From Takakia lepidozioides (lineage: Eukaryota; Plantae; Bryophyta), in contig JAKLZA010000009.1 in NCBI GenBank assembly GCA_030704615.1, positions 1 to 64,000 of the forward strand: 64,000 nucleotides of DNA, written 5' to 3'. The notes below the pieces were generated by a model. That model saw only the letters and a program-made list of their open reading frames with translations. It ran no database searches and was not told where the DNA came from. Each line of letters starts with the position of its first letter. Position 1 is the first letter of the stretch. Both the position numbers and the translations under genes were made by a program. This document shows positions 1-44,616 of this stretch, one piece after another.

Positions 1-29
1 AGGCACCATGCGGAGTCCATCGACGATTG

Positions 30-1660
30 GAAGTCCGGTACTGCATTTCCGTTCTGATTGAGAATCATGAACAAAGGGAACAGAAATGAGGCACCGCATT
101 TCCGTCCGAGTCGCACTTTCTGACATTCCAGAACGGAAATACGGCACCGCATTTCCGCCCGGGTGAGACCTTAACACTCTCCAGAACGGAAATGCGGTAA
201 CGCATTTCCATCCAGCAAGCACGGTATGTGAAGGTGGAACGGAAATGCGGTACCGCATTTCCGTTCTGATTGAGAATCATGAACAAAGGGAACAGAAATG
301 CGGCACCGCATTTCCGTCCGAATCGCACTTTCCGACATTCCAGAACGGAAATGCGGCACCGCGTTTCCGCCCGGGTGAGACCTTAACACTCTCCAGAACG
401 GAAAAGCGGTAACGCATTTCCATCCAGCAAGCACGGTATGTGAAGGTGGAACGGAAATGCGGTACCGCATTTCCGTTCTGATTGAGAATCATGAACAAAG
501 GGAACAGAAATGCGGCACCGCATTTCCGCCCGGGTGAGACCTTAATATTCTCCAGAACGGAAATGCGGTAACGCATTTCCATCCAGCAAGCACGGTATGT
601 GAAGGTGGAACGGAAATGCGGTACCACATTTCCGTTCTGATTGAGAATTATGAACAACGGGAACAGAAATGCGGCACCGCATTTCCGTCCGAGTGGCACT
701 TTCCGACATTCCAGAACAGAAATGCGGAGCCGCATTTCCGATTTGTATCTGATGCATGGAGCCCAGTGCAATTCCGATCGCTTGAGACAGCGCAATTCCG
801 ACCGCTTCAGACATTCATACTATCCAGAACGGAAATGCGGTACCGCATATCCGTTCTGACTGTAAATCGTGAACCATCGGAACTGAAATGCGGCAGTGCA
901 TTTCCATCCGAGTCGCGCCTCCCTCACAAGCTAGAACGGAAATGCGACACCGCATTTCCGCCAGGGTGAGACCTTCATACTCTCCAGAACGGAAATGCGG
1001 TTTCCGTTCTGACTGTAAATCGTGAACCATCGGAACTGAAATGCGGCAGCGCATTTCCATCCGAGTCGCACCTCCCTCACAAGCTAGAACGGAAATGCGG
1101 CACCGCATTTCCGCCCGGGTGAGACCTTCATACACTCCAGAACGGATATGCGGTACCGCATTTCCGTTCTTATGAAAAATCGTGAAACATCGGAACTGAA
1201 ATGCGGTACAGCAATTCCGTCGGAGTCGCACCTTCCGACATTCCAAAATGGAAATGCGGCGCCGCATTTCCGCCATGGTCAGACCTTAATACTGTACAGA
1301 ACGGAAATGCGGTACCGCATTTCCTTTCAGATTGAAAATCATGAACCACGGGAACTGAATTGTTGTGCCGCATTTCCGTCCGAATCGCACGTTTCGACAT
1401 TCCTGAACGGAAATGCGGCGTCGCATTTCCCTTTTGTATCTCATACATTGAGCTGTGGGACGGAAATGCGGCACCGTATTTCCGTTCAACAACTAAGGTA
1501 TGTGAAGGTGGAACGGAAATGCGGTGCCGCATTTTCTTCCAACAAGCACGGATGTGTAGCTTCGTGATGGTACTTAACGGAAATACGGCGCCGCATTCGC
1601 ATTTTCACTCCAACTCCAAATTTGAACACGTGGAGCATCGGAATTGCGGCACGTGTCTGC
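30..1660. repeat. Array of ~30 palindromes GAAATGCGGYACCGCATTTC with 53-bp period; higher-order repeat of ~212 bp (4 x 53)
   Basis: Palindrome starts at 83,136,189,242,295,348,401,454,507,560,613,666,719 and again 1092,1145,1198,1251,1304,1357,1410,1463,1516. A few spacer types recur in order. Confidence 0.95.
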
Positions 1661-1922: not shown

Positions 1923-4900
1923 ATGCTCGAACCTGAGAGGGAGGGAGTGCGTGCTCCAGAGAAGAGACATCGTCGCAAGCTCCGAAAATTGTACTTCGGA
2001 CGGAGGCCAATGCCGAAGGGGAGGAAGCAGATGCGTCTATAGGAGGAGATTGCCATCTCGCAGCATCAGGCCACGCAGGCAACCCAGCCACCAGTGAGAG
2101 CTCAGTGCTATCGGGATTCGCCAGCTGATCGAGCACCGAAACCCGCCTCATTTTTCTTCTGCAATTCTTAGACTGTATGCTAGGAGACTTGACTGCAGAA
2201 GATGTTTGCATGCCTAACCGGAAAGGTGGACGTGCTGGAGGGATCGCAGGAATCCAAAGAGCCGCAGGCAGAGTCCGTGGAGCTAGCTGCAGTACGCACA
2301 CCCAGCCGATCCGCGAGCACGGGTCTTCCTGCCGGTCCTAGCCCTGTGCGTTTCAAGGACGCGGCTTCCAAGGGCAAGTCCTTGCAGTTCAAAGCCCCAG
2401 AGAGCGACTCGCCTTCAAAGGTCATGGAGAATCGCCAGCAGGGGTCTAGCCCTTCTCCAGCAAAGACAAAGAAGAAGCAGCCCGTCCTTCAACTTGTTTC
2501 TGAACCGGACCAGGCCGTTTCCCCCCCACCCAGGCGAATGAAGCAGATTCAATTGCAGCAGACACCTTCACCTGCAAGAATGAGGAAGCACAAGGCAATC
2601 AGGGGGAGGGCGGAGCAGTCTCCAAAAACCGATTCCACGAGCTGAAGCCCAGTTCCTGCTTGATTTCCAACCTGCTGCAGCGAAGCCAATGGGATCAACC
2701 GGAGATCTGGTACCGGAGGAGGGTGCTGCCTCTCAACGTTCTCAGCAAGACCTGACCTACAGTTGAGGAAGACCTGACCACTGAAGGCCCGGAGGAGGCC
2801 TCTGCAATTGCACAATTGTCCGCAAAGATTCCCCAGAGTGCAGCTCCAGTTGGGGATGCTCAAGCTGCTCAGCCCCTGCCGCCACCAGCAAAAATGTCTC
2901 CGGAGGAATTCCAAAGTGTAGCGGATACAATGTTGGAGGAGACACATAGTAGCATTGGCAGAGTTCTGGGCAGCAGGGTATTCCAGCGGACTCTTCAAAT
3001 CCCACTCTGTCGCATGGTCTCCCTTCCCATCGTCAGGCAGGCACTTCCCGGAGATGTGGATAAGCTCAAGTTCGCATTTCGAGAAGGGTACCGTCTAGGT
3101 TCGCCAGCCTTCTATGTTTCCCTTGAGAATGAGGACGGCGAATCTCGTGGACCCACTGCGGAGGAATTGTCAACATGGGATACCCACTGGCACACTCGCA
3201 ACGACAAATTCGAGGCAACACTGAAGGGTGATCCCGACTTCGGCCATATGTCGGGTAAAATGTTCTTTGTGTGGGACGGGAATCACCGACTTCTCGCCTG
3301 GTGGGAGTACATCAAGCAGAACCATGCCAAGCACATTGGCTGGCATTACATGGTGGAGTGTGTCATCCTCAAGGTGAAGGCGGCAGACTCCTCCCTGCTC
3401 AAGAATGCCATGGCGGACCTCAACTCGTAAGATACTCATACCCTCCCATGCACGTTCGAAATGCGGTGCCGCATTTCGGTTTCCAATCTGTTTTGTTTCC
3501 GTGCTTTCGTGGACTGAACTGAGAGTGTGCCTTGCAGGGTCACTGAAAATGCGTACGTGCATACCCACATGGCACATATGCTGTACAGGGTGAGGAAAAC
3601 TGGTCTCACTGATCTGCACATGTTCGCGGAAATGTTGGAGCCCGAGCTCATTCAGAAAGCCGTGGCAAAAACTGACTGGACATGGTATCGTCTCACTATG
3701 GATGGAATGGTGGAGGTCATATACGAAGTAAGTCGTCCTCCCATTTCCCTCTGCTCATCCTTCCTCAATTTCCGGTAATCTTTCCACATGAATCGAATGT
3801 AACGCTTTTGCATGTTTTTGTTGGCAGTCAAACATCAAGCTGGATTTGGCCCATGCCAAACGCTTCTTCATGGAAAGTGAGGGGCAGGTCAAAACGTTGC
3901 AGTCATTGACTGAGCACTTGAAGGAAGCCGGGGTCAAGTCCAGAACGAAATACAAGTCAAAGCTTGTGAAGCTGGTGGCCATTGCAGATCCGGCACTTGG
4001 AAAGGACTTCATCCCCGAGATTGCAAAACACTATTCTCGGGCCATGCAGCCGACCATGCAGTTGGAGAAACTGCATCACCTCTCAACGGCATGTGTTGAA
4101 GCGAAAGAGAAGGTGATGTTTCAATTCACTGAAGTTCCTTCCTAGCAATAGCCACTCTTCTTCCTGCTCCTAACATTGGATCGGAAATGGCAGACACGGT
4201 GGCTGTCGATCTGGAATGCATCGGAGAGTATAAGGACAATGTGGTCTTTTCCACTCGAAGTTTCCGACCCTGCAGTGGATGTGTGGCTCAACCGCATGAC
4301 TTGGTGGTTCCAGGTAATTCAAGGTACTTCCCCAGATTTGCTTTTCTGAAATGAATTCCCTGAACTGCTACGTGACAATGCATGTGGGAATCGCAGGTAA
4401 TGACAAATGCGAAGGAGCAAGTCGTTATGCATACAAATTCGTTCGGCTTGTACGTCAAATGGGATGGAACACAGACATTGGAAGACTACGTGACACGTTT
4501 CAGATGTGCTTACAAGGACAACCTCTTCGCCAGGGAGCTGCAGACAGCAAGAAGGAGCGTGGAGTTTACACATCAGGAGGGAGCGAGAAAAGCTGCAATG
4601 CGAATTGTTTACAGGTGAAGCCCAGCTGTCCTTGTATGCAAAGCCTGGTAATGAGGTTTGTCTGGGAAATGCGGCACCGCATTCGCATTTTATGTTTTCG
4701 GTTGCACTCTGCGAGTACGTTAGTCTCAACTTTTGCTCACGCATGCTGACTGTCCTGCAGGTATATGAAATACGTGCTTCTTCAGACAGGGGCCCTGGCT
4801 CAAGAGCCCCCGTTCTTCATGGCTTGGACCGTGGCGGGCCCAAGCTGTGTCTACACACCCGAGATGCAGAAACAATGGCATGCCGCGCATCTGGTTGGCT

Positions 4901-7114
4901 GCCCGTGGTACCTGGACATGTCTGGCGGAATTGTTGACGAGTCTGAGAAAGATCTGCACGCGAAAGCAGAAGAGAAGAGAAAGGAAAGACGTGTCCCTGC
5001 TCGTCCAGAGTCGGCAAAGGAAGCTGCTGCTCTGGAACAATCCAGAAAGGCAGCTGAAATGGCACAGAAGACGGTGGATGCAGCTGTGCAGGCTCAACAG
5101 AAGGGGTCGAAGAAGCGGACTCGGCAGCAAGGAGCAGCAGTTGTGACACCCAAGAAAATGAAGAAGCAGAAACAGATAGTGCAGGTAGAGGGTGAGGAAG
5201 AGGACTCCGATGGAGACTTTGCAACCAGCCCACCCCCCGAGACGGAGCCAAAATCCCCTGTGCCCACCGTTGTCACGAGAGGGACGAGAACTCGCTCGGC
5301 AAAGAAGGCACTCTTCAACCCCCCGGGGGGGCACCCTTTCGAGCCGGTGGAAATGAAGAGGCCGAAAGTGGATCCCGATACAGTAGTCCAGTGTGTCAAT
5401 GAGAGTTTCTTGGCGGCTTTGGATGGACGGGCAGCCAAGTTGGCATACATGAAGACCATGGAGGGTCTGAAGGGCATAGCACTGAAGAAGGCGGTTGCCG
5501 AAGAGCCTTCCGACACCCCCGGGTTTCTGAAGATGGTCTCGTTCCTTGAGAGGGTGTGTGCAGACAAGGATTGCAGGAGGGGCGGAAATGCCACCGATTG
5601 GTCTTGCGATATGATCATCTTGGATATTCCAGACGGAGAGCCTGTGGAAGGACTGCAAGCTTTGCCATCTTGGAACAGGTACTCCGAGGACTTTTGGAAG
5701 AAAGGATTCGGGCTCGCCCGCATGGTGTTGGACGACAGAGGCTGTGTGGTTGTCCTGGCGAGCAGAGGCAAAAACACGCAGACATGAATTGCGAAGTGGA
5801 CCCGCAAGAGCGCCGTCCCAATTCTGAAGAAGAAGTGGACGTGCATCAACACATTGGGCCTTTGGTCGGAAGGGAAGAAGGTAATTACGACCTTGGCACT
5901 CGTCCTTTCATTTTCTTAGGAGTCTTGAAATGCGGTGCCGCATTCGATTTCTAATTGTCCCCCACTGTGTATGCAGACGAAGCAGTTCGATGCATACTGC
6001 TTTGTGAAGGAGAACTCCACCTTTGCTTTCCGGAAGGAGGGATTGTTGGTTGACCCGAACTGCGACCCCATCGATTACGACATCCTGTTCAACAACGTTC
6101 CCACGTAACTTCTCCCTCATAGCCTCACTTCAACTGAACCCCTGCGGTATTCACGCACTCGGAGCCCTGCCTTCATTCAGACAATTATGGAGACATGCAC
6201 TGACGTGGAGGGCACAGTGCTCGACCTCATCTGTGGGACAGGTATGCAGAATCTTGTTGTATGCTTTTCTGCAAACTCTCGTTATGCTTTCATTCGCAAC
6301 ATCTGAAGGGCCATGTCATAATGTGTGGATGGCATTGTAACAGGTGCCTCAATGTGGGCTGGGCGGTTTTCCGACCGGCACCTCTTTGCCTACGAGGAGG
6401 ACACAGGCGTCTGGGGATCCCATCTGGAAGGGCTGCAACGGAATGTGAAGGCTCCCATCGAAGTCAAAGACTCCTCGGATTCGTCGGAGTCGGAGGAAGA
6501 GACAGTGGACATTGATGCCGAGGAGAACCCGGAATACGAGTGAGTGCAAACATTGTAAGTTTGCAAAGCCTTCTGTGTGATTTTTTGTCAAACGCATATC
6601 CGGACTGTGGTTCTCATTGGTCTCGTTGGTGATTGTTATATGCAGGATTGGAGGATCCGGGTCGAAACATGTAAGGCCTACACTTCCTGCCAGGAAGAAT
6701 GTCCCGTTCTTTGCGAGGGCCGACTTCATGACGAGCCCGGTGAAGGACTACTCCCTTCCTAGTTATGCAGCTAAACTCGCAAATACAGCGATTAGACGAT
6801 GTGAGAATCCCAGTAAAGTAGAGCAGATTTTGGAGAGGGCTAGGGAGGACAGAAGGATAAGGAAAGAGTTGGCAACAGCTGAGGCAGGTAGACGGGTGCG
6901 AAAGTTCATATGTGATTCAGCGGATGAGAGCGATGCAGACACGGAGGACGACAAGCCAACGGAGGTGAGATGGTCGGTTCCGCAAGGTGAAGATGGGATT
7001 TTCGAAAGCCTGGCCAACGAGCAGTCCGCTGGAGATGATAAAGGCAATGATGGGGTGGAGGCGGAGCATGACAGTCAAGGACAGGACGACAATAGTGATG
7101 ATTTTCAAGATTAA
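1923..7114 (+). pseudogene. Spliced gene A: ParB/Srx-like N-terminal domain plus beta-class N6A/N4C DNA methyltransferase-like C-terminal domain (disrupted)
   Basis: GT-AG introns at 3427-3537, 3728-3827, 4113-4193, 4314-4396, 4615-4760, 5881-5976 and ~6242-6343 join homologous exons. Motifs: IPLCRM...FFVWDGNHRLLAW (~3000-3300), CDMIILDIPDG (~5605-5637), RYSRTRSPAFIQTIMETCTDVEGTVLDLICGTG/ASMWAGRFSDRHLFAYEED. In-frame stops near 2040, 5785 and 6107; frameshifts near 2650-2780. Confidence 0.8.
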
Positions 7115-7249: not shown

Positions 7250-8175
7250 CTGAAATGTGGCACCGCATTTCAATGTCTGAACGGAAATGTGGCAACTGCA
7301 AAAACCTCCTTTGGAAATGCGGCACCGCATTTCCAAAACCGGTGCAGGAAAAAATTTCCGTTTCATGGTTTAGAAACTGTTCGGACAAACGGAAATGCGG
7401 TGCCGTATTTCCGTTTCCGACACGGCAATTTTGCCGATTGCCAGCTCCTTCCATGGATGTAAATCGAAATGCGGAGGTCGAACATGGAAATGCGGTGCCG
7501 CATTTACCTTTTGGAGATGGACATTTTTCCAACTGCAGACCCATCGACGTTCTTGGGCTCCCCATTCCATGATGCTAGACGGGAATGCGGCACCGCATTC
7601 CATTGTCCAATAAGAAATTTCGGGACATCGTTGTTTGCCCAATTCCAGACCCTTTCATGGAAACGCGGCCCCGCATTCCATCGTCCTATAAAAACTTACA
7701 TTGTCCTGTAAAAACTTTCAATTGCCCGACATGGGAAATGCGGCGCCGCATTTCCAAAACAGCCATCGTTGTTTGTCCAATTCCACACCCGTGTGGGCAT
7801 TCCGTCTTGATGGACGGAAATGCGGCACCGCATTCCATTGTCCAATACGATATTTTGATGACGAACATGTAAATGCGGTGCCGCATTTCCAGAACTTCCA
7901 TAGTTGTTTGTCCAATTCCAGACCCTTCGACGGAAATGTGGCACCGCATTCCATTGTGCTCTCCGGAAATGTTGTGCTGCATTTCATTGTCCGGTACAAA
8001 ATTTCGATGACGGACACGGAAATGCGGTGCCGCATTTCAAGTATGGACATGGACAAGCATTAGCAACTGGACATGCTTGGATAGTTCAAGGTCGAATATG
8101 GAAATGCGGCGCCGCATTTCAAATTCGAAGTATGGTAATGCCATGTCAGGAAATGAAATGTTGTACAGCATTTCC
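7250..8175. repeat. Intergenic array of ~15 A-type palindromes (GAAATGCGGYRCCGCATTTC) upstream of the transposase
   Basis: Copies start at e.g. 7252, 7314, 7392, 7487, 7582, 7735, 7817, 7870, 7933, 8019, 8101. Confidence 0.9.
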
Positions 8176-8340
8176 GTTACGACGACAATGGAGGAAAGGG
8201 AGCTGCCAGAAATCGCTGCATGGAGAAAAATGAATTGCGCTGCCGAATTTCCGAGCTTCGGCGTGTACATGTTTCCTACAACTCATACATGGATTTTCTT
8301 CACCTCAGGACTCTGATATCGCTGACTCTGGTATAGTCAT

Positions 8341-10788
8341 ATGGACAGACACATTGTACAAATGAGACCTCAAATTGTAAACAGTGAGCCAATTACGGCA
8401 GTTCTTGAACACGATGAAACACAAGCACACAGAAGTGAGGTACGATGGGTGCCCCTGAATCCTTTCACCCCAGGGCTTGCCCCTCCCAGGACCAATACTT
8501 TCGTGTGCAGGTTCTGCAAACTTTCCCCGTCCTGTGTTTCTGTGTGCCACGCTCGTATGTATCAGGTGGCACACCGATGCAAGACAATGACGCGTGCCTG
8601 CATTCATATGGGTGCACACGAGCATCCTGTGTCCAAAGGAAGTTGCAGGGATAGCGTGGACATCGCTAGAAATCTGCTGAAGCAGGAGTTCCACAATGCC
8701 CCTTCTGCAACACCTTCTGCTATAGCGCTTGCAGCTAGCAAGGCATTCCTGGAGAAACACATACTGGGTGAAGGGGATGCGACACAACTTATGCTGGATG
8801 CAGATTCGCTTAATGCAGTCATGGACCATTTCTCCGTGTTGAGCTCTCCCAATATTCGAAACCAGGTGAATGCACTCAGAATGGGCACAGGCACTGCTGG
8901 ATTCATGGACAACATTATGGACCTGAAGCAGAGGAGTCGCTATGAATTCATTCAAAACAGTGTCTTCCCTGGCCAACCAGGAGGAGATTTGGCTAAATGT
9001 TGGTTAATGTTTGATCACTGCAAACGGGTGAAGGGTTGGACAACCATGGCGTGCCATGTGTATGATCCGGCGTACCAGCGTGTGCTCTCCATAGCAATTT
9101 GTGATATGCAGTCGGAGGACACTGAATCCCAAATGCTCATGTGGAATTCGCTCTTGGCCGTCATGCAGCGCAATGGAATACAAAACACAAATTTTGCGGG
9201 CTTCATGGCTGATAGTGCACAGGCAAATTTCAATGCAGTGCGACGCGTGTTTGGTTCGGGGGATCCTAAGGTCCCAATGGAAAATAGGGAGCGCACATGC
9301 CTCTTCCATTGGACTCAATCTCTGGCACGTCATACAAAGCGTTGCATTCGCCCTGACCTGCAGTTGGAGCACAGAAGGCTCTGTCTTAAGTACAAGAATG
9401 CCACCTCAATGGGAGAAGCTGAGAGCACTTACCAGGCAATCCGGGCTTGGTGGTTCTCCTCTGGTGCTGCAACAGGTACCCACGTAAAGGAGTTGGAGGA
9501 CTGGTTGGTTTTCTGGCACTTCAGGTACAGACAGTGGGGAGCTTTCATGACGACGGTAAGCCTCTTCAATCCCAAAAACAGAAATTTTGCATCGTGCCTG
9601 TTCATTTGGGGTTCTTCGATTGTCACTTGAAGAACCTCTACCATTTGTTTTCGTTCCTCACATATCCATGCAATGCCTCCTGCAGGACATGTCCTTGGAG
9701 GACTTGGCCGACATGCCATCCTGTAATTTGGCGGAGACTGTTCACAACGCCTGGATGCAGCAGTCTACCAAAGCAGGTCGTGACTTGTATGTGGCCACTG
9801 CTGATGACATGGTGCGTGCACTTACACAACAAACCAGGTACTGCAATTTTATGATGGGACGGGGTGGAGGCAAGGGCCCTGATACGACTTTGTTGATGCT
9901 AAGGACTGCGAGTAGGTCCGGAGTCCCGTCGAAGATGGCCAGAGCTCTAAACAGATGCACTGAAGGGTCCGCTCTACAATCCAGGATCCCCCATTTGGAA
10001 GGCGAGGAAAGATTTGGATCATGCAAAAGGAAATTGAACACTCTTCCAGGGTCAGATGGAGATTCCCATCGGCCAGACAGGGTCAATTTCTCTGTGCCAA
10101 AGGTGTCTCCACTGCAGACTGAGTCGTGTGCCCGCCCCTTCCCAGGTGGGTCCTCCTCCAGTGGAGCAGGTGCAGAACATACAAGCACAGCAGCGGGAAT
10201 CCCATTGGAGGAGGCGGTGGCCATGGTGCAGGAATCCGATTGCATTGATAGTGAGTGGCATATAGAACGCACCCCACCAGGATCTAGAGTGGCTTGCATG
10301 GCAATTCGGACCCCCTCATTCAAGAAATGCAAATCAAAGATATGCAAAGGCTCTAGGGGGACTCCAGCTCCAACATTCACAGGGTTGTTCCGACCTTATC
10401 ATAGTGGGGAGTCAAAGGACCACAAATTTTGGTTCTGCCCAGACGATATGGCACGATGCGTGAAGGGAACAGTTCGTCCTTTGGTGATAATGAAACCCCC
10501 TCCCCCCGCAATTTGGCCTGTGCAAATTGGGACGTCGCTGTCATCAACCAAGATAAGCATGCTGGAGGAGGGAGGGTTCTGTCTTGCACGGTCCCGGGTG
10601 GTGCCCTCATGCGCTGTCAGCACAGATGTGCCACATGCTCCGGCAATGCCGCCACCCGGTGCCGACTCCCACCCAACAAAAAGAGATGGAAAACAGTGCG
10701 CTGTTTCGCTTCGGGTGCAGATCACGAATGCAAGATGGAATCTGCTAGAATTTTGCAGGCTCGGGTGTCTCGTATCACCGAAGTCCCT
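8341..10788 (+). pseudogene. MULE-type DDE transposase A, 5' part (internal deletions relative to B, frameshift near 10700, interrupted by Gypsy)
   Basis: Motifs WLMFDH (D1), FMADSAQA (D2), RERTCLFHW (CxxH), PSCNLAETVH (E). Intron 9556-9685 is at the same position as in transposase B. Confidence 0.85.
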
Positions 10789-11836
10789 TGTTAGAGGACT
10801 GTAGGGGACTTAGACACTTATATGGGATCTGTAGGGTACCCTTAATTTTTGCACAGACTGAGACCAACAGGAGCCTTAGGGGTGACAGCAACGCACTGTA
10901 GAGGGGGGTTACACAGCCCGTCACAGTCGTCACAGCCGACACAGCCAACACAGCCCGTCACAGTCGTCACAGCCGACACAGCCCACACAGCCCACACAGA
11001 CAATCACAGCCCACACAGCCAATCACAGCCCGACACAGCCGACACAGCCAAACACAGTCGACACAGCCCACACAGCCGTCACAGCCCACACAGCCCGTCA
11101 CAGTCGTCACAGCCCACACAGCCCACACAGCCAGTCACAGCCCGGCACAGCCACACAGCCAGTCACAGCCCGACACAGCCAAACACAGCCAGTCACCGCT
11201 TGACACAGCTGTCACGATAATAGGGAACGAAGAGTAGGACAGGGAACGACTGTGGGGAACAACACCTGTGAAGGGAACATGTTAATTCACATACGACGGT
11301 TAGAGAGGGAAACGGTTAGAACCGCGGATAGGAGGATAAAGGGAGAAACGGGGAATGAAGAGGATGATTATTATTCGGGGGAAGGAGGATTTCGGAGTCA
11401 TACGGGAGCGGAAGTCGGTGAGCACGATGAAGGAGGAAAGAGGATTAGTAGATGCTTGTTATATGCAAAGCTGTAGGGATATTGTAGAGGAGAATAGAGA
11501 CACAATGGCTTCGGCCTGATACCTGATAAATCATAATCTGATACTTATACGATACAATCACACTGTGTAGAGAGATCTGAGTGAAGCTGTGGATTGAATG
11601 GAGGAGTGAAGGAAACCGATAAATTGATGAAGCAAACTGATGCTTAATTATCAATGGTAAGGTAGCTAAGATGAATGCGGAAAAGGAAACAAATAGGAAA
11701 CACCCCCATGATACACTAGCTGTAGGTCATGACTGATTGTTCTGCGCGGGCTGAGTACTTAGAGATTTCCAACTCTTCTATCTTGGAGTTTCCGCCTCGG
11801 ATAGCGAAGGGATGGGTGAGTAAAAGCCGCGCGACA
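10789..11836 (+). repeat. 5' LTR (1048 bp) with an internal CACAGCC/CACAGTC short-repeat tract (~10910-11210)
   Basis: Begins TGTTAGAGG and ends GCGACA. Near-identical to 23281-24354 and highly similar to 59458-60449. Confidence 0.97.
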
Positions 11837-12424: not shown

Positions 12425-12445
12425 AAGAAATGAAAGACATGGGAC

Positions 12446-28557: not shown

Positions 28558-31500
28558 TCAGTCTGACTCAGAGTCAGTACAATGTATCCCCACTTCCTCT
28601 GCATCTAAGTCTAAGTATTTAAGAACTCCGGATCTACGCTGGCTACACCTACGGCCAGGCAGTAAATATTCAGGGGATAGGGACTCGGCCGCGTGAAGTG
28701 CCATTGCTTCGGCATAATCAGGAAGCAGAAAATTGGAAAGGGGGCTGTCGAAAACAGACTCGCCACAAATGACTGTATCTCCTGAAGATCCACCGCTGCC
28801 TTTCCTGAAAGACAGCCTGAAAAAGTTATTACTGTAACTTTGATGTTATTGAGAAATTGAGTATGACTCCCAAAGTGGGTTTAGCACTTACTCACATGAA
28901 AAATCGTTGTCGACCTGCTTATCTTTGGGATCGTCATCATTTCAAATTTGAATCCGATCAGTCTGTGTGCCTGAAGTGGAGCCAGACAAAGGGGGAGGAG
29001 CACTGTGTTGTAGAGGTCAGAATCACCCTCCATGCCAAAAAGGCTTCTTCCGCCTGCCTTGCATGCATGGTAAGTTGCTCCTGCACCAGACAGGAGGACA
29101 TGAACAGTTTGGTGGGGGGGGATTTAAGCAGATGGAACTGGTGAAAGAAAATCAATTCGGAAGGGAGAGAACGAACCTGTGGACACAGAAAGATCGACCA
29201 CCCGTGCAGAGTGGTGGCTGCATGACTCTAGCAGTATTTGCATGAATGTTGGGGATTTTTCCTTTGCACCTCTCCAGGGAGTGCCATCTGGTCTCTTCAA
29301 AGTCTGACTGGACTGCATGAAGTTGTATAAAATGTCATCGACATGCGGCTCATAGGGGGGTTGACGAAACAACCCTGGTCAAAAATCTCAAAGCTGCAGA
29401 TGGAGGATGGTGTCTTGGAGGTGCGAATCCTCCGCAGGCAGATCACCTCGAACATCCTCGTCTGCCAAAGATAGCAGGTTAGTGTGGTAAACACAATCTA
29501 TAGTGGAAGTGTGTACATCGGCTATTAAGAACTCAGGCACAAAACAATCATTTTTATCACGAATCGGTGATGATCGGTGTTGATCATGACAGATTCTTCT
29601 AGAGTGGAGCTGCAGAGAACATTGAAACTCATCATGAAAGCACAAGCAAAAGGGAGACGGCATACCAGCTGACCAGGGAAACCCCTTTCACAAGGTAGAG
29701 GCTGTTCACACAATTCCATGTGCGCAAAACTTCAAACCCTGAAGACTTCAGGTATGATGCCAATGCCCGACGACTATCTTTGTCACATGACTGAAAAAGC
29801 AGAAGTGTCCCTGCATCAGAGAGGAAATTATTATAGAACCCGAACACCCAACTCCAGTAGTTGTCCTCGAATTTGTTCCAGCCTGGCGTCTTGCCCTTTG
29901 GAAGAACTTCTGGCACAGCCTGGCCATCCGGGATGTCGAGAATCACAATGTCAGCTGCATATGTTTTCAACACACCGCACACGAAGGTGGGACCTGTGCT
30001 CACCTGCAACAGACATGTTTTTTTAAAGAACGATGGCAAGAATGTTTTCAAAGAACCAGACTGAAATACTGCCAATGAAACTTTCAGAGAAAAAGGAAAG
30101 AAACTGGAATTCTCACCAGATTGAGGAATGAGATTATGTTGTCCCAGGTAGGCGAAGGCACCCCAGTGTATCCTCTCTTTCGACTCTGCATCATCGACAG
30201 CCAACCCTCATCGACAATTTTAATCTCTCCTGCCGAATAAGAACGGGAAGGGTGTGGCTTGGCATCGAACACGCACTGAACTGTGCGGGTATATCTTCCA
30301 GCAGTGAAGTCCTGCCCACTCTCCATCTCATTTTCTTTCTCCTTCCCCTTGTCCTTTTCCTTCTCTTTGGACTTGTCTTTGTCCTTTGGCTTTGCTGGTG
30401 AGATGGCTATGACATCAAGAGCCTTGTCTTTTGGTTTGCGGCCCGCCTTCTTTCCCTTCTGCGGCGTTCCCTGAGCATCAGGCTCCTTGGCAGCCAATGT
30501 TGCTATGTTTCTTTGGTACTCTTCGTCAGTCAGAGGCGCCAGCATCTCAGCATTATTGTTCAAATATTTCATATGTTGTTCTTGAAAGGTCGTGTGCTCC
30601 GGTGGGCAGTCAAGGTACCAGCCATAGTCTCTGAAGTGAGAAGGACTCCAATCCTTCAATATCCCTGCAGTATACATGGTTGGATCGTTTGCAGGGTCCG
30701 ACCACATGTCAAGATAGTCTGGAATACCGCTCAGGTGATTTCCTTCCATAAGCACATATTTCGTGTACCTGTTAAACAGGAGATAAATCCCAACCCACCA
30801 AAGCGCGAAGTGAGTAGATGCAAGTAGCACAGAATGAAAAAAACATGGAATGAAATGGCTCTGAGAACTGCTCCAAGGACCTTTAGGACCACACGACAGC
30901 TTCGGATGTGAATGTCGTCAACGCCATTCAAAACATTCCATTCAATGATTACTGTAAATAACACCCTAATCCACGTGAATGCAAACTCTCATTTGGAATG
31001 ACACAGACATAGAAGTGAATGTTCGTCAACAACATCACTTTGGATTTGTGAAATACACTGCAATCAAGCCTACTAATTTCTCAAAAGAGGCAAATCATTG
31101 ATGGACTGGAAATCAGAAACTCGACTAAGGAACCCTTCCCAAAAACTCAATGGACATTCATAACGAACATAACACTGAGGACCTCATAATAACACTGGAT
31201 GTGAATGGCGTCAATGCCATTCACAAAATTACGAACAAGGAACCAATTAATTAGCTCCCAATCCATGTAAATTCAAATTGTCGCTGGTGAATGACACAGA
31301 CATAGAAGTGAATGTTGTCAACGACATTCACTTTGGATCTCTGATAACACAGCTAATCAAGCCTCAAGATTTCTCGCAAGAGGCAAAAGCAATGCAGAAC
31401 AACTGAATGTTTGCATTGACATTCAGCAAACTGAAGTGAGGAACCCTCACTGTAAACTCTATGGACATTACAAAAACTTATATAACTCTGAGGACCTCTC

Positions 31501-31870: not shown

Positions 31871-32255
31871 GAGGTTTGCTATTTCATGAGCATGAGCGGC
31901 ATGAGCGGCATGAGCAGAGTAGTAAGACAATCGGTTTTCATGAGCAGAAGTACAAATTTCGAAAATAAAAAACAATAAAAATAATAATTTAATGCAATGT
32001 GTCAGGAAAAACAAATATATTATTCGGCCCCTTGAAGGGAAAAATTGCAGGTAATTCGGCCCATTTTTCCAGTGCATGTTCGGACTTAGCCAGTTTTCGG
32101 CGCAAAAATAGGAAAATTCGGCGCCATTTTTTCAGACACTGTACCAGTGCATGTTGGGCCAGTGCATGTTGGGACTTAGCCAGTTTTCGGCCCAAAAAAG
32201 AGAAATTCGGGGCCATTTTTCCATTCCAGGAATGGCCCCACAACTGCTTCTGTTC
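31871..32255 (+). repeat. Left TIR of element B
   Basis: GAGGTTTGCTATTTCATGAGCATGAGCGGC...; matches the reverse complement of the right end. Confidence 0.92.
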
Positions 32256-32579
32256 CATCCATCCGTGCTCTGAATTACCTGCAGGATGGAAATCCGGCGC
32301 CGGAATTCTATTCTGCTGCGGCTTCGAAATTACCTCTACGTTGGAAATTCCGGGGGCCGAGTTGTGTGTCATATTTCATCTGAAGGGAGGGCTTCATCCG
32401 ACATTTAATGCGTAGTTGGCATTTAAATGTCCACGCCGTCCGTTTTTATTCGGGCTGGCGACACATGGCTTCCTCGAGTACGTACCCTAAATCTGTATGC
32501 TAATCTTGGATTAATTTAAAATTCTATTCGAGACTGTTACCCCAAAAAAATGAGATCTTTTCCATTTTGGCTGGGACTT

Positions 32580-35561
32580 ATGCCGCTTTGAAGGGCGTGT
32601 CTCTCCTGAGAGAGACCTCACATCCAGGACCGCGGCGGAAGTTGAAAGCTTTTGTACTTACGGACGACGGCCAATCTCTCGCATGGCCAAACTTAAGCTC
32701 CAGCAGGAGATTCCAGTGTCTTGCTCACAACCCGCGCCAACTGAAGCCGAGTACTCTCAGGCAAGCCACTTCTGCTTCGCTTTGTTCGCTTTCGCTTTGT
32801 TGTTTCGCTTTTGTTTTTGCATCTTCATCCTGGCATCGTTGGAAAGCGTTATGGCTGGCATCGCAAAAAAGCAAGCAGCTGTTTTGTTGCGGAGAATGAT
32901 CAAGTCTGAGAGTGGTTAAAAATTAAGGAAATCCATGCTGAGCTGGAAGAAAATGATGAAGTGCCTTCAAAACATTTCACCTGTTTCCCGTCTTATGGAA
33001 TTCCTGATCATTTGTTCATCGTGTTTTTATTACCGGTTGAGTGAACCTTAGATAGGTTTGCAATGCGGTGCAAAGCCGGGCAGCTCTGGAGAAGGCTGAT
33101 TGTGCATGTCATTCTTAGGCATTGGTTGGGGATTGTTTTCATTGTTGTCCATTGGCACTCCATACTCCTAAACTTGTTTTTTGTGCAAAGCCGGCAGCTC
33201 TGAGAAGGCTGCTTGTGCATGTCATTCTTATGTGCAAAGCCGGCAGCTCTGAGAAGGCTGCTTGTGCATGTCATTCTTAGGCTTGGTTGGATTTTTTTCA
33301 TTGTTGTCCATGGCACTCCATACCTTCCTAACGTGTTTTGTTTTTGATTTTTTGTTCCCGTTGTTGTTCCACGATTGTTGCTATGGGGTTGCGTTTCTTC
33401 GTTGCGATGTTGGTTTTGTTGTTTTTTGTTTTTTTTTTTTTTTTTTGGTTTTGCACCGATGTTGGTTCTGACGATTTTGGGGAATGACAGAGTGACGACG
33501 AGCCCGGCACGCTGGTGGTATCATCGACCACTCCAACTCATCGATTTTTTGAATCGCCCAACTTGGGGCGAGAGGGCAAACTTCAACCTTTTGTTGGTGG
33601 ACGGGAGGACCTGCAGCGAGGGTACGACAGATATAGGCATTGGGGAGGTTGGTGCAGGCGGCATGGCAGGTGAAGGGGGTGAGGACGTGAGGACAATCAG
33701 ATCCGACAATGGAGGTTGTTGATGCACATGCAGTAGGGCCCCGCCCACGCAAAGAAGAAGAAGAAAGCTAAGCACATGCAATCCCCGGCGAGAGAGCCGT
33801 CACGGGCTGCGGAGGGGGGAGTGAGCAGTGCGCGCGAGGGTGTTCCTTCTCCTCAATCAAAGGTGGTCGTCCTAGAGGGCTCCCCTGCTGCTAGCCCTAG
33901 TAAGAAACAGAAAGCCCGTGAGAGGGCAAAAGAGAGGGCAAAAGAACAGGCGAGACAGAAGGCTAGCCAGGAGGAAAGAGAAAAGGCCACTGAAGAGGCC
34001 AGGTGTGCCCAAATGACAGATGCCAATGTAAGCGAGGGACGCACAGAGATGGTGGATCCCTCCAAGACACCACAAAAGAGGCAGTAACACACCGTTACAC
34101 CATCGCGGACAAGAGCAGCCCCCGCAATTACCCATACGGTGGAGAGTGGAGGAGAGGAAAGAACACCACAAAGAGCACGGATTGTGCAAGTTCGAGGTGA
34201 AGTCGGGGAGATGGCAGTAGAGACCGGGAGAGTGCTCGAGGTGGTTTCGCCGGTGGTTCACCATGTTGAGGAGGATGACACCGAGCTTTCTGACTAGGAT
34301 GACATCCTCCCGGACATCCCCAGGCCCCAAACCCGCAGCATACAGGCTGGATTTGGCGGTCCTGGTGGGCTGCCGGAGAACCCCTCTGCAGCAGACGTCA
34401 TGTCGGAGGCGGATATGAAGTTTGGCCGCTGCCAAGATGTTGGAGGCAACCCACAACAACATTGGCGGGGTGCTGGGGGGCATGGTGTACCCGGCCAAGC
34501 TTCGAATTCCCCTTTGCCGCTTTGGTGTCTTTGCAGGTGGTGAGACCTGCCCTCCCAGGCGATATCGACAAGCTGAAATTCTCTTTCCGGGTTGGATATT
34601 GAATGGGGTCTGCCCCGTTTTACGTTTCCATTGAGAACGACCATGGAGCTTCCCGTGCCCACACTTCCGATGAGGTGGACAAATGGGGTCCCCATTGGCA
34701 AAGGCGAAATGAGGAGTTCGAGAGAACAATTGCTACTGATCTCTCTTTTCCAGCACTTGTCCGGTAAGATGTTTTACGTGTGGGACGGCAATCATCGCCT
34801 CCTGGCATGGATGGAGCACATAGCCGAAGCCCACCCCAACGACCTCGATTGGCATTTCGCCGTGGAGTGTGTTGTGCTGAAGGTTACGGGGCCCAAAGAT
34901 CGCAGTCTTCTCAAAGCTGCAATGGCGGACATCAACTCGTAAGTTACAACGCCTCTTGCTTTTGGACCCTCCGATTGTAAGTCATTTCATTGCGAATCCT
35001 CATATTTGTTGAAAATTCCCATTTCAGTATTGTTTGATGGAAATGTGGCATTGCAGAGTGACTGAGAATGCCTTCATTGCCACCAACTTGTCCCATATGC
35101 TCTTCCAAGTGAAGGATGTCGGGAAGCAGGGGGTGCAAGAGTTTGCCAATTCGCTCAGTGCCGACCTCATGCGCAAGTCGGAGGCAAAGGCAGACAGAAC
35201 CTGGTATAGGCTGAGCATGGACGCCATGGTGGACTACATATTTCGGGTAAAGCTCCTGAATGTTTTGTTGAGCTAATCTGTCTCTCCTCCCCCAATAGAA
35301 GAAAAAGTGTTGAGCAGGATCTCTAATCTTATGTGCGCATTCTTGACAGACGAAAAAATTCAGCAGGATTTGGCACATGCGCGGAGGTTCTACATGGAGT
35401 CAGAGGAGAAGAATCTAACCCTCCCAGCACTCGAATCGTATCTCAAAGCTGCGGAGGTGAGGGCCCGCATAAAGTACAAGTCGCGGATGGTAAAGTACGT
35501 GGCCATAGCTGATCCCGCCCTTGGTGCCGACTTTCTGGTGAAGGTGGGGAAGCACTACTCC
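32580..35561 (+). pseudogene. Gene B: 5' half of a ParB-MTase-like gene, close relative of gene C, truncated after ...VGKHYS
   Basis: Highly similar to 49440-52035 on the minus strand; MFYVWDGNHRLLAW at ~34770-34810; several frameshifts; abrupt junction to the repeat array at ~35562. Confidence 0.88.
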
Positions 35562-35564
35562 TGA

Positions 35565-36710
35565 GTGGTGAGGCCCAAAACTGGACGATATAAAAACCTC
35601 CCAGGATGGAAAAACGGCGCCGAATTTCCGCCTGGACTTCCTTTGAGGGGGCCCGGATGGAAATTCGGCGGCGAATTTCCATCCGGGGGATGGTCTCTGT
35701 CGGACAGGTGCCGGCCTCTCCCCCCCGAGGCGACTTCGTCCGGGCGTCCTCTGTTGGATATTCGGTGCCGAATTTCTGTCCGGGGGTTGAAATGTGACGG
35801 CCAGGTGCCGGCCTCTCCCCCCTCCCCGACTGCATCCGAACCGCCCCGCACGGAAATTCGGCGTCGTTTTTCCATCCTGGGAGGTTTTTTTATCGTCCAG
35901 TTTTGGGCCTCACCACCCGACCGGACTTCCTTTGAGGGGGCCCGGATGGAAATTCGGCGGCGAATTTCATCCGGGGATGGTCTCTGTCGGACAGGTGCCG
36001 GCCTCTCCGCCCAGGCGACTTCGTTGGGCGTCCTCTGTTGGATATTCGGTGCCGAATTTTCCGTCCCGGGGTTGAAATGTGACGGCCAGGTGCCGGCCTC
36101 TCCCCCCCCCCGACTGCATCCGAATGGCCCCGGATGGAAATTCGGCGCCGTTTTCCCATTTGGGGGAGGTTTTTATGTCGGCCAGTTTTCGGCCTGCCCC
36201 CCCCCCGACACGACTTCCTTTGGGGGGGCCCGGACGGAAATTCGGCGCCGAATCTCCATCATCCGGGGGATGCTCTCTGTCGAACACGCGCCGGCCTCTA
36301 CGCCCGAGGCGACTTCATCCGGGCTTCCCCTGTTGGATATTCGGTGCCGAATTTCCGTCCGGGGGTTGTAATGTGAGGGCCAGGTGGCGGCCTTTCCCCC
36401 GAGCCGACTGCATCCGAACGGCCTCGGATGGAAAATTCGGCGCCGTTTTTCCATCCGGGGAGGTTTTATGTCGGCCAGTTTTCGGCCTGACCCCCCGACA
36501 CGACTTCCTTTGGGGGGATCCGAATGGAAATTCGGCGCTGAATTTCCATCCGGGGGTTGTTCTCTGTCGGACAGGTTCCGGCCTCCTGCCCGAGGCGACT
36601 TCACACGTGCGGCCCCTGCTGGATATTTGGTGCCGAATTTTCATCCGGGGGTAGTAATGTGACGGCACGGTGCCGGCTTCTCCCCTTCATCCGACATCAT
36701 CCGAACGGCC
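35565..36710. repeat. GC-rich array of B-type palindromes GAAATTCGGCGCCGAATTTC with ~96-bp period (higher-order unit ~288 bp)
   Basis: Copies at 35660, 35757, 35853, 35949, 36041, 36137, 36237, 36336, 36431, 36527, 36622. Confidence 0.93.
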
Positions 36711-36941
36711 CCCCACTTTCTGACTGCATACCATTGGCAGTTATTGCGCAAAGACCAGGGGCCGCATTCCTGAGACAAGGTTCATTAACACTCTGACTGT
36801 GGATTTTTGAGATAGTTGGCTCCCTGGATTTGGATCAGGCTTCGTCGCTCGGACAAATCGGCACTGCATTCCTTCCCATCGCTGCATCCCCCAGGGAGCT
36901 TGCCCGCACGCCATCCTGGGAGTTTTGTGTGCACATCTCCC

Positions 36942-39900
36942 ATGGCGGAAAACCCGAGCGCTACAGTGTACTGCCCTCCTCACGAGCATAGAGCTTCATT
37001 TCCGTGCAGAGGGGACATCTGCCGGGTGATGGAGAAATATCTGTGCGTTCGATACCACCTGAAACCGGGGTCGGTTTTTCTGGAGGAGGAAAGGAAGGAC
37101 TCAAACGGCGTTGTTGTCGAGAGTATTGTTGTGCTCCACGATGATTTCGGCGATGGCAGGGAATGGCGAGTTCCACCATCGGACAACGTCGTATACAGGG
37201 CTGTTGGGGACTTCATTTGCCCGCCAAATGCACCTTCTATTCTGGCGCCTTCCACGAAACAATCCGCGAATCAGAGAGTGGCTACCTCAAAGAGAGAAGT
37301 ATCCAAACCCATCCATGAAGACGAGTGAGAACCGGGTTGTTCACAACCTGTCCGACTCAGACGAGGTCATGGAAGTTCCGAGGTTGTCTTGGAGATTAGG
37401 CAAGTCCTCAATGGACGTTAGTGGACGAGGGAGTCATATTCCCAGCACGAGCACTGCAGTTCGATCTATTCTTGAAATTCTGCGAGGGCTTCACATGGAG
37501 GGACACCGCTTGGAGCTGGCCGGGCTGGACTACAGCAAGTTTGCAATTAAATCGGTTACATGCCTTCCCGCAGACGTCGATGGTAATATCTTCTTTAAGT
37601 TCCCTCCTCGGACGGACTACTCGAGGGCGTCCGGAATGTTGACAGATATGGATAGAAAACATGATGGTCATCCTTGGTGCGTCACCAAAACCACCAGCAT
37701 GAAGATGCTCGATGGTGTGCGGGTGCGCTACGTTGTTTGTGCGGGTGCGTTGCGGTGTTTCTCCCCAACTTGCTTCCATTTTAAATCCAGAGGTCACAGG
37801 AACGAGACCGATTGGACAAGCACAGCTCATCAACCATTTCGAGCTTCCGAACTCCACATTTAAGTGTGCGCATTGCAAAGAACACCACATTGCATGTCTG
37901 TTTGTAATGCCAAGCAGTTCTATGTGTTGCACCGTTTCCCTGACCTCACCCGAGCTTGCATACACATTGGTTCCCATTGTCACAAATTGGCGAGGGGGAA
38001 CTCGCGGGAGGCTGCCCACGAAGCAGAGCAGCTCGTTCAGGAGGAGGTTAAGTTGAGACCGGGTGCCAAACCCAAACAGATACAGCTCCAAGCCGCCCAT
38101 AAGATGGCCTTGGCCAGAATTATGTCGGAAGACGGCTCCGATAGAGTTCATCTCGATGAGAAGGAAATGGAGGCATTGCTGGAGTCGGTGTCCCACGTAT
38201 GTTCACCGAATGTCCGAAACCACATTGTCTCATGCAAACAGAAAATTGGGCGTGGCTTGGATATGCACTCCATTCTGGAGGTGAAGCGACGATGTGGATA
38301 TGACTACATTCATGGAAGTAGGTTTCCAGGACAAGGGACTGAGGCAGATCGTTGTTTCATATTCAAAATGTCCACGTGTGGACCTGGCAGCGGTGTCGAA
38401 CTGGTCCGACAGGATGACGAGTGGGGACTTGTCAAACAGTTGGGTCATGTTCGACCATATCAAGCGAATTACAAATCACCAGTGGGTGACAATAGGTGCA
38501 CATGTCTACGACACCCACTGCAGGATGCTAATGACAATTGCTATTTGTGAGATGAAAGGAGAGGACACACAATCGGAGATGCTTCTTTGGCAGGGAATAA
38601 ACGAACAGATGGCCAAGGCGGGATTGCCCCTTCCCAATTTCCGTGGTTTCATGGCGGACAACACACAAGCAAATTGGGCTGCCATCCGAAGGGTGTACGG
38701 GCAAGACCCCAATGTTCCCATGGAAGGCAAGGAGAGATCTTGTGGGTTCCATTTTCTGCAGAGCCTTTCGCAGTACACAACCAGGCTCGTGGCGCCAGAT
38801 TTCAGAGAGGAGCACCGTTCCATGTGTCTTGCGTGGAAGTGCGCTCCCACCTTGGATGATGCAGAGACACAATTTGCATGTATACGGGCTTGGTGGACAT
38901 TGTCAGGTGCTGTAAGGAAATCAGACGAGGGAGCAATGGTCAGTTGGCTAGCATGGTGACATTATTGTTTCCTCCAGTTTGGCGACTATATGCGGGAGGT
39001 GAGTTGCACGAATTCGCGTCCCGTTGAATATTATTCTTGGCATTATTTGTAACTTGCTTGTAACCTCAACATGTGCTTGTGCAGGAAATGTGTCTCGACT
39101 CCGACACCGACATGCCCACGACAAACATGGCCGAATCAGTGCATTCTTCCTGGCGTGCCTCCTCTGCGGCGCATCTGGTGGACATCCTCACTGCCACAAC
39201 GGAGGACATTGTGAGGTTAATTATGCAGCAATGCAGGTACAACGAGTTCTTGAAAGGGAAACAGTGGGGCTTGGGGCCGGACAGGCAGGAAATGCTGATG
39301 CGGACTCCAGATCGAAGAATCCTCGGAAGTGGGCGGCGGCCTTGCGAGAGGGCCTTCGGGACACGCCATTGCTTCGAAGAGGCCAACATTTGGAAGGAGA
39401 TGTTCATACCCGTCCAGTGAGACGAAGACTTGACGAGGCACCTGGCGGGGAAGAGGATTCATGGCGAGCTGACAAGAATATTCGCACGCTCCCTCGTGGT
39501 CCCGTGATGTTGCCCGAGGAGGTCTCGTCGAGCACCGCAAGTCCTGCACGTTCAAGATCGCCATCTCATTTGAGCATAGGGCACGTGCCCGAGGAACATA
39601 ACGAGCCATCTGTAGTAACGCAGTACAACATACCCATTGTGGAGACAAGAGTGTCGGAGTCACAGTGGAGAATTGCAAAGACATTGCCGACATTTCGAGG
39701 GAAGTGCTGCGCCATTCGGGTAGATACGAGAGCACATTGTGGTGAGATGATTTGGAGGAACCCACACGGTGCTGTACCTGCACCTTGTTTCAGCGGCAGA
39801 TTTTTTACTCCCACATTTGCTCACGCCACAACGCAGACGTTTTGGTTCTGTAGGCACGACATAATGACCTATGTATTTGGCAAGCCCAAGTACGAGATTC

Positions 39901-44613: not shown

Positions 44614-44616
44614 AGA

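What the first reader, a model, noticed from the sequence alone, without database searches (positions are those of the whole stretch)
5605..6410. Methyltransferase-like domain has a conserved non-canonical motif IV (DIPDG instead of DPPY/SPPY)
All three divergent copies read LDIPDG (A ~5620, D ~29930, C ~47607). The SAM-binding motif is DL(I/T)CGTG or DLSVSTG rather than DPFxGSG. Established: the aromatic residue of (D/N/S)PP(Y/F/W) stacks on the flipped base. Its consistent replacement by Asp suggests altered chemistry or substrate, or a catalytically dead base-binding reader, rather than random decay (inference).
Basis: partly seen in the sequence, partly recalled or inferred. Interest (0 to 1): 0.7.

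Follow-up and report, generated by a model that had tools for sequence, protein, structure and literature searches.

The report
Transposon methylase with closed base pocket
A high-copy land-plant jumping gene carries a bacterial-type DNA methylase domain whose two predicted base-gripping residues have become oppositely charged while its main predicted cofactor contacts are kept, so it likely no longer methylates DNA bases and likely serves as a structural part of a protein predicted to bind the element's own palindromes.

Summary
LDIPDG stands in copies A, C and D, and it is motif IV of a beta-class amino-methyltransferase: it aligns gap-free with CcrM DPPY, and a modelled homologue matches CcrM at Z 19.1. 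Only the fourth residue is unusual, since phage enzymes read DIPY and DFTMGSG. It is not decay: synonymous sites are saturated (pN/pS 0.35), the high-copy A family shows no amino-acid variant in the motif, and a probable RNA run holds a spliced contig. Of 106 readable homologues, 2 are aromatic there and 76 are Asp/Glu; a Ceratodon clade keeps DTPF/DQPY. The other base-stacking residue (CcrM Thr191) is Lys/Arg in 9 of 9 acidic full-domain rows and 0 of 8 aromatic rows, while the SAM-binding Asp and Glu persist. Best reading: a SAM-binding pseudo-methylase with a closed base pocket, in the ParB-like accessory protein of a Mutator-like element. A changed substrate is not excluded; a base reader is unlikely. 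Copy A itself is broken by two private stops. ParB-plus-methylase genes are published for algal transposons, and this scan noted the plant family and its missing motif before, in other genomes.

The parts
5623..5637 (+). Motif IV, D-I-P-D-G of copy A (equivalent to CcrM D31-P32-P33-Y34)
   Evidence: in run X1 the only listed change in these codons is a synonymous one at 5631
4761..5880 (+). Long exon of copy A: charged linker plus first half of the methylase domain; premature stop at 5785-5787
   Evidence: the stop is absent from over 99% of laid depth in X1
5881..5976 (+). GT-AG intron, same position in A, C and D; holds one palindrome copy (5928-5945)
   Evidence: the homologous intron of C is spliced out in run X8
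5977..6241 (+). Second methylase exon: motif X-like R-Y-S-R-T-R-S-P (6145-6168; Arg at 6154 = CcrM Thr191 position) and motif I D-L-I-C-G-T-G (from 6223); premature stop at 6106-6108
   Evidence: the stop is absent from 98% of laid depth in X1
6344..6524 (+). Third methylase exon with the motif II Glu (6394-6396), the SAM-ribose contact
2996..3421 (+). ParB-like N-terminal domain of copy A (VWDGNHRL motif); the assignment is weak
   Evidence: 62% identical to the C copy, which hits phrog_1033 ParB-like at E 0.004; model uninformative
29..1598 (.). Tandem array (about 53-base period) of an 18-base palindrome upstream of gene A
   Evidence: 96 two-strand matches in the window against a shuffled mean of 0.04
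7253..8250 (.). Second cluster of the same palindrome, between gene A and the transposase
8341..10804 (+). Mutator-like transposase relic, cut at 10789 by an LTR retrotransposon
   Evidence: family label rests on a weak SWIM hit in the homologous copy (E 0.053) and on recalled motifs
46200..51479 (-). Copy C of the ParB-like/methylase gene; DIPDG at 47600-47614; frameshift just upstream of the methylase domain
28980..30790 (-). Copy D, 3' part only; DIPDG at 29923-29937
31871..41284 (+). Element B: terminal inverted repeats, truncated ParB-like gene (33300-35560, 92% identical to C), palindrome array (35565-36716), Mutator-like transposase (36816-40499)
42781..44376 (+). Copy E, ParB-like 5' part only

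Best explanation
DIPDG is motif IV of a beta-class amino-methyltransferase domain that has likely closed its flipped-base pocket but likely still binds SAM, so it likely works as a non-methylating structural module of the ParB-like accessory protein of a Mutator-like plant transposon. Shown: fold (on a homologue), register, purifying selection, fixation in the high-copy A family, splicing in the C family, linkage to transposase and palindromes. Inferred: in CcrM the target adenine is sandwiched between Tyr34 and Thr191. Here those positions are Asp/Glu and Lys/Arg, which would pair across the pocket and fill it. The Asp of motif IV and the Glu of motif II, which matter most for SAM binding in M1.HpyAVI, are kept. 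Further inferred and untested: the N-terminal ParB-like domain binds the element's own palindromes, and the protein helps its family stay transcribable or mobile, as VANC does for VANDAL elements; the methylase fold supplies scaffold or DNA-contact surfaces.
For: Register and fold: profile A2 aligns DiPe to CcrM DPPY without gaps (E 2.4e-9) and hits M1.HpyAVI at E 2.3e-11. The model of a Ceratodon DAPE homologue (pLDDT 83.9; the Asp ends strand 56-62) matches CcrM at Z 19.1, rmsd 3.2, 228 aligned. Aromatic loss is family-wide: 2 of 106 readable hits are aromatic, and 0 of 18 loci found by the ParB exon alone. Coupled change: Thr191 position is K/R in 9 of 9 full-domain rows with D/E at Tyr34, H in 2 plant aromatic rows, and T/C/T/H/A/N in 6 phage rows. 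The Lys118 position is lost in 14 of 14 plant rows. Motif IV Asp is kept in 12 of 14 rows and the motif II acid in 10 of 10 rows that reach it. Roles of these residues: PMC6787082 and PMC5173035 (passages). Non-aromatic substitution at motif IV position 4 harms activity: PMC10050889 and PMC2647291 (passages). Selection: A vs C pS 0.78, pN 0.27, pN/pS 0.35 (bootstrap 0.28-0.43), close to the ParB-like exon (pN 0.23, pS 0.80). Position 4 varies among D/E/T/N/S before Gly, as a turn residue would (turn preference recalled).
Against: No activity or binding was measured. The coupled change could be one ancestral event: the ingroup base is unresolved, and one clade of non-aromatic rows is neither shown nor rejected (p-AU 0.33). 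Counter-examples: decayed metagenome loci pair Arg or Gly at position 4 with Lys, and P0114 has Thr with Met. Lys118, His189 and the motif I Phe are also changed in the aromatic Ceratodon proteins, so the family may use a rebuilt but active site. Keeping SAM contacts for so long is unexpected for a pure scaffold. The ParB label is weak (one PHROG hit, E 0.004). No repeated palindromes were found in 26 long metagenome loci. The model is of a homologue, not of the window's protein.
Confidence: 0.5

Rival explanations
1. The domain is an active SAM-dependent methyltransferase with a new substrate (a chromatin protein side chain or a non-base nucleic-acid group); the acidic residue would help hold a cationic acceptor.
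For: SAM contacts are kept (motif IV Asp, motif II Glu, and G-T-G in A and C). D/E fills 76 of 106 position-4 slots and the Trp of PxWN 106 of 106. Strong purifying selection. Red-algal transposon accessory genes join this domain to a SET domain (bioRxiv 2025.02.11.637652, passages).
Against: Position 4 is not invariant (28 of 106 are T/N/S/K/M). The glycine that HpyAVI needs for SAM binding is S/N/A in 7 of 14 plant rows, His189 is lost in all 14, and some rows have lost the motif IV Asp. I found no precedent in my searches.
Confidence: 0.24
2. It still makes 6mA or 4mC on DNA, with the new Lys/Arg (cation-pi) or another aromatic replacing the Tyr stack, and marks the element's own palindromes.
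For: The two groups that hydrogen-bond the target amine in CcrM (Asp31 side chain and the next backbone carbonyl) can be kept. The Lys193 position is K/R in 12 of 14 rows. The published proposal for the algal proteins is self-modification (PMC12477816, passage).
Against: Mutagenesis of other amino-methylases shows loss or reduction of activity without the aromatic. An acidic residue next to a flipped base is unfavourable (inference). The Lys118 network around Tyr34 is gone.
Confidence: 0.15
3. It is a catalytically dead reader that binds a flipped (possibly methylated) base.
For: The fold and the loop after motif IV are conserved. Precedent for inactive transposon-borne adenine methylase domains in DIRS1 (PMC4738411, passage).
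Against: The residues changed are exactly those that stack on the base; those kept mostly contact SAM.
Confidence: 0.07
4. The motif is neutral decay in dead transposon copies.
For: All window copies are broken, and most metagenome copies carry stops.
Against: The same motif persists across saturated synonymous divergence. The two stops are private to copy A, and no non-synonymous variant of 10% share or more is listed in the motif among 4098 laid contigs. A spliced contig exists. Named moss, liverwort and fern proteins lack the aromatic too.
Confidence: 0.04

Closest known systems
ParB-like plus N4/N6 DNA methyltransferase accessory gene of Ectocarpus Sola1-1_Ec32 (PMC12477816; passages seen)
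   Same: ParB-like domain plus N4/N6 methylase in one ~1100-aa protein carried by a DNA transposon, proposed to bind and modify its own element. There it lies on the strand opposite the transposase, as in 11 of 55 metagenome loci here.
   Different: Here the host is a land plant and the transposase is Mutator-like. In this window gene and transposase lie in tandem. The passage seen says nothing on the state of motif IV, and I did not compare sequences.
Plavaka accessory genes PAG2/PAG3 of Bostrychia and other red algae (bioRxiv 2025.02.11.637652; passages seen)
   Same: PF01555 methylase and ParB-like domains carried by DNA transposons, with tandem arrays of inverted repeats beside the ParB-like gene.
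   Different: There the methylase is fused to SET and the ParB-like domain to a 2OG oxygenase, in separate genes; here ParB-like and methylase are one gene.
Beta-class amino-methyltransferases: CcrM, M.BceJIV, M1.HpyAVI, rotifer N4CMT, Marchantia DN4MT1
   Same: Fold, motif order IV...X-I-II, motif IV Asp, motif II Glu.
   Different: These carry (D/S)PPY (DN4MT1 TSPPY; N4CMT SPPY). The plant family has D-hydrophobic-P-(D/E) and Lys/Arg at the Thr191 position. I did not compare DN4MT1 by sequence.
VANC anti-silencing proteins of Arabidopsis VANDAL Mutator-like elements (PMC5735166; abstract seen)
   Same: Accessory gene of a Mutator-like element, with family-specific short motifs in tandem arrays in the element's non-coding DNA.
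   Different: No sequence relationship was tested or claimed; anti-silencing is not shown here. A functional analogy only.
Inactive methylase-fold proteins: METTL14 and DIRS1 methylase domains (PMC4738411; passages seen)
   Same: Amino-methylase fold kept with disrupted active-site motifs.
   Different: Different lineages. Here the main SAM contacts persist, and no catalytic partner is known.

Membership tests
Beta-class N4/N6 DNA methyltransferase (PF01555) | Permuted Rossmann fold with motif IV before motif I | tested here: met
   Model of homologue P0033 against CcrM Z 19.1, rmsd 3.2, 228 aligned; motif order in the window
Beta-class N4/N6 DNA methyltransferase (PF01555) | Catalytic motif (D/N/S)-x-P-(Y/F/W) | tested here: not met
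   D-I-P-D in 3 of 3 window copies; aromatic in 2 of 106 hits; met in Ceratodon P0003 and P0005
Beta-class N4/N6 DNA methyltransferase (PF01555) | SAM-binding motif I FxGxG and motif II acid | tested here: inconclusive
   GxG and Glu kept in A and C, Phe replaced by I/T as in 3 of 6 phage enzymes; D has S for the first Gly
Beta-class N4/N6 DNA methyltransferase (PF01555) | Pfam gathering score | tested here: inconclusive
   Single window exons give no hit; P0003 and P0005 pass; non-aromatic P0033, P0085, P0099, P0020 hit below the cut-off
Beta-class N4/N6 DNA methyltransferase (PF01555) | Methyl transfer to adenine N6 or cytosine N4 | not testable with these tools
   needs an assay
Transposon ParB-like/methylase accessory genes (Ectocarpus Sola1 type) | ParB-like domain fused N-terminal to the methylase | tested here: inconclusive
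   Fusion shown; ParB identity rests on phrog_1033 E 0.004; model pLDDT 49
Transposon ParB-like/methylase accessory genes (Ectocarpus Sola1 type) | Carried inside a DNA transposon next to a transposase | tested here: met
   Element B has terminal inverted repeats around both genes; transposase matches in 11 of 55 metagenome loci
Mutator-like elements | MULE-type DDE transposase with SWIM finger | tested here: inconclusive
   SWIM E 0.053, below cut-off; no MULE Pfam hit on the fragments
Mutator-like elements | Long terminal inverted repeats and a 9-11 base target duplication | tested here: inconclusive
   Inverted repeats of about 400 bases in B; no target duplication seen by eye at its ends
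VANC-type anti-silencing system | Protein binds own motifs and removes DNA methylation from its family | not testable with these tools
   CpG observed/expected 0.54-0.81 in A, B, C genes against 0.25-0.34 in two gypsy stretches but 0.63 in a third: weak and confounded

The most novel reading that the evidence does not exclude
Land-plant transposons rebuilt a captured phage DNA methylase into a SAM-dependent protein with a new active site: the Tyr/Thr base sandwich became an Asp-or-Glu/Lys-or-Arg pair. It either methylates a chromatin target other than a DNA base or uses SAM occupancy as a switch, and its ParB-like domain guides it to family-specific palindromes to counter host silencing.
Probability: 0.22. 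Interest if true: 0.8.

Novelty: new variant of a known kind. Interest (0 to 1): 0.5.

Why it matters
Published notes on algal ParB-plus-methylase transposon genes propose that they methylate their own element. The plant family suggests that most members lost the base-stacking residue and were still kept under selection in mosses, liverworts and ferns, so the useful function is probably not 6mA/4mC writing. The family also supplies natural controls: Ceratodon holds aromatic (DTPF, DQPY) and acidic (DAPE) paralogues, so 'writer, retargeted enzyme or scaffold' can be tested side by side. A second, VANC-independent, sequence-guided transposon self-protection system would matter for plant epigenetics.

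Tried and rejected
No genome was held for this window, so copy number comes only from public run contigs. The word search with the C motif exon found nothing. Pfam on 21 window ORFs or exons gave no methylase or ParB hit; single exons found no relevant PDB sequence. The viral contig scan with the ParB exon confirmed none of 67 candidates. The model of the ParB-like exon was low confidence (pLDDT 48.9, 6 sequences) and its fold search had no match at E 0.001 or better: uninformative. The homodimer-plus-SAM prediction gave no verdict (score 0.01, alignment not used): no evidence either way. No run is on record as RNA; X8 and X11 are guessed RNA. A-family contigs in X8 and X11 were short or unspliced, so splicing is shown only for the C family. 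My simple palindrome count found no repeated palindrome in the 26 metagenome loci over 9 kb. The CpG comparison was inconclusive. A compensating role for the invariant Trp of PxWN was considered and set aside: it is present in aromatic and non-aromatic members alike, and phage enzymes have a Trp there too. The CcrM Glu135 position could not be aligned unambiguously. The motif-exon tree (90 rows, 98 columns, no outgroup) places the aromatic rows in two separate groups among non-aromatic rows, but the outgroup tree cannot tell retention from regain. Ten literature searches; the ones aimed at a land-plant ParB-methylase transposon gene or its motif loss listed no such paper. Iyer et al. 2011, cited for green-algal examples, was seen only as a reference entry. 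No supplements were read; those of the Ectocarpus and Bostrychia papers may show the motif state of the algal proteins.

Full report
Observation. A six-frame scan finds DIPDG three times in the window, each as LDIPDG: 5623 (+, A), 29937 (-, D), 47614 (-, C). The SAM motifs are DLICGTG, DLSVSTG and DLTCGTG as stated. The gene is spliced: two GT-AG introns lie at the same places in all three methylase domains. In guessed-RNA run X8 one 770-base contig skips exactly the two C introns, and another skips the upstream one. None of the window copies is intact. A has stops at 5785 and 6106; C lacks 7 bases relative to two runs just upstream of the domain; D is a frameshifted 3' fragment.

Context. The domain is the C-terminal part of a long gene whose N-terminal exon carries a VWDGNHRL motif. 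The C copy of that exon hits a phage ParB-like family weakly (E 0.004). Five relics of the gene lie in the window (A, B, C, D, E). Element B is bounded by inverted repeats (31871-32254 and 40630-41284) and holds the truncated gene, a palindrome array and a transposase-like frame with a SWIM-like finger. A shows the same order: array, gene, array, transposase, then an LTR insertion. The A palindrome has 96 two-strand matches within 3 mismatches against 0.04 expected; B and C carry a related but different one. In 11 of 55 metagenome loci found by the ParB exon, a related transposase lies head-to-head upstream. Named homologues come from Ceratodon, Riccia and Adiantum, so the host is a land plant, probably a bryophyte (inference).

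Is DIPD motif IV? Yes. A profile of 74 family sequences aligns D-i-P-e to CcrM D31-P32-P33-Y34 with no gap (E 2.4e-9) and finds only methylases among its 16 PDB hits. An AlphaFold model of the spliced Ceratodon homologue P0033 (DAPEG; pLDDT 83.9) puts the Asp at the end of a core strand. It matches CcrM at Foldseek E 6e-12 and VIA Z 19.1, followed by M.BceJIV, N4CMT, M.MboIIA, M1.HpyAVI and M.PvuII. The window's own C exon also recalls PF01555 clusters by language-model features (0.92).

What is really unusual. Six annotated phage or plasmid methylases that best matched the Ceratodon protein read DPPY, DPDY, DIPY, DPPF, DVPY and DPPY, and 3 of 6 read DFTMGSG at motif I. So Ile at position 2 and DL(I/T)CGTG are ordinary; the anomaly is position 4. 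Of 113 hits I dropped 2 probable false hits (P0042, P0060) and 5 that do not cover the column. The 106 left read E 40, D 36, T 11, N 7, S 5, K 4, F 2, M 1, with Asp at position 1 in 88 and Pro at position 3 in 90. That search is biased toward the query: the aromatic Ceratodon proteins P0003 (DTPF) and P0005 (DQPY) score 23-25 bits, under the 35-bit cut. As a check that does not depend on the motif for sampling, I read motif IV downstream of ParB-anchored metagenome loci: 0 of 18 readable loci (of 55; about 11 distinct, mostly decayed) were aromatic.

Not decay. A and C are 59% identical over 217 codons, with pS 0.78 and pN 0.27 (pN/pS 0.35, bootstrap 0.28-0.43), close to the ParB-like exon. 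Family A is very abundant: 4098 contigs of run X1 lie on 741 bases. The two stops are absent from over 99% and 98% of the laid depth, so they are private to this copy. In the motif codons only a synonymous change at 5631 is listed, and the run's single G>T place is 5778, so a Tyr codon at 5632 does not reach 10%. For the spliced X8 contig, 3 of its 7 differences in the motif exon are listed and none touches the motif; depth shows it is the only contig there, so the motif is probably unchanged, but 162 rows were not shown.

Mechanism. In CcrM the flipped adenine is stacked between Tyr34 and Thr191, its amine bonds to Asp31 and the Pro32 carbonyl, and Lys118 helps stabilise it (PMC6787082, passages). 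In M1.HpyAVI the motif IV Asp and motif II Glu are the residues whose loss abolishes SAM binding (PMC5173035, passages). Non-aromatic substitutions at position 4 harm activity in other amino-methylases (PMC10050889 and PMC2647291, passages). In 14 plant full-domain rows and 6 phage rows, the Thr191 position is K/R in 9 of 9 rows with D/E at Tyr34, R/R/M in the 3 rows with T/S, H in the 2 aromatic plant rows, and never K/R in phage rows. A further protein, P0022, also pairs E with R. Family A keeps that Arg with a synonymous change (6156). Lys118 is gone in all 14. The motif IV Asp is kept in 12 of 14 and the motif II acid in 10 of 10. The base pocket, not the SAM pocket, has been rebuilt, and an acid-base pair on its two faces would close it (inference; not measured). 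Against this: the rows are related, so the pairing may be one event (non-aromatic clade p-AU 0.33); a decayed metagenome subfamily pairs Arg or Gly with Lys; and several SAM-side residues (His189, the motif I Phe, often the first Gly) have drifted, also in the aromatic paralogues. I give 0.5 to a SAM-binding pseudo-methylase scaffold, 0.24 to a retargeted enzyme, 0.15 to a still-active DNA amino-methylase, 0.07 to a base reader and 0.04 to decay. The role of the whole protein, binding its own palindromes to protect or mobilise its family, is an analogy with VANC (PMC5735166, abstract) and is untested; the CpG comparison was inconclusive.

Known relatives. [quoted passage not shown] Red-algal Plavaka elements carry the two domains in separate genes beside inverted-repeat arrays (bioRxiv 2025.02.11.637652, passages). 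Marchantia DN4MT1 and rotifer N4CMT are active SPPY enzymes (passages) and were not compared by sequence, apart from the N4CMT structure match. Searches listed no paper on a land-plant family or its motif loss. Earlier AI notes of this scan describe the same plant family in other genomes, several already saying that the catalytic motif is missing; they gave me the Mutator, VANC and Ectocarpus leads and are not independent support.

Verdict. A real, family-wide and selected change of motif IV; a new variant of a known kind. Interest 0.5.

Noticed in passing
window 31871-41284: Element B has inverted repeats at both ends, with gene and transposase in tandem, whereas 11 metagenome loci have them head-to-head. 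Its methylase half is deleted, and no target duplication was seen.
   Followed up: partly
window 29-1598 and 7253-8250 versus 35565-36716 and 52286-52813: A and B/C families carry related but different 18-base palindromes, also inside introns of the gene (3459, 4667, 5928; 48568, 48642), as expected if binder and site diverge together.
   Followed up: partly
window 10789-22352 and 59458-64000: Two 97%-identical retrotransposon copies with long open frames; one interrupts the A transposase. Earlier notes describe DNMT3-carrying gypsy elements in this genome; I did not check whether these are such.
   Followed up: no
window 44518-44616 and 45907-46005: A 99-base, 97%-identical duplicate of the C element's end flanks a 1.3-kb gypsy fragment (44619-45906).
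   Followed up: no
P0003/P0004, P0005/P0119 and P0033/P0137 (Ceratodon purpureus): One moss species holds paralogues with DTPF, DQPY and DAPE; the aromatic ones look intact in two strains. Their genomic context (transposon or domesticated) was not examined.
   Followed up: partly
P0070, P0072: A second aromatic group (DLPF) groups with the Adiantum DLPT protein in the exon tree (95/91), apart from the Ceratodon aromatic pair: a possible regain of the aromatic.
   Followed up: partly
window 30885-31707: Imperfect tandem repeats of about 290 bases upstream of copy D.
   Followed up: no
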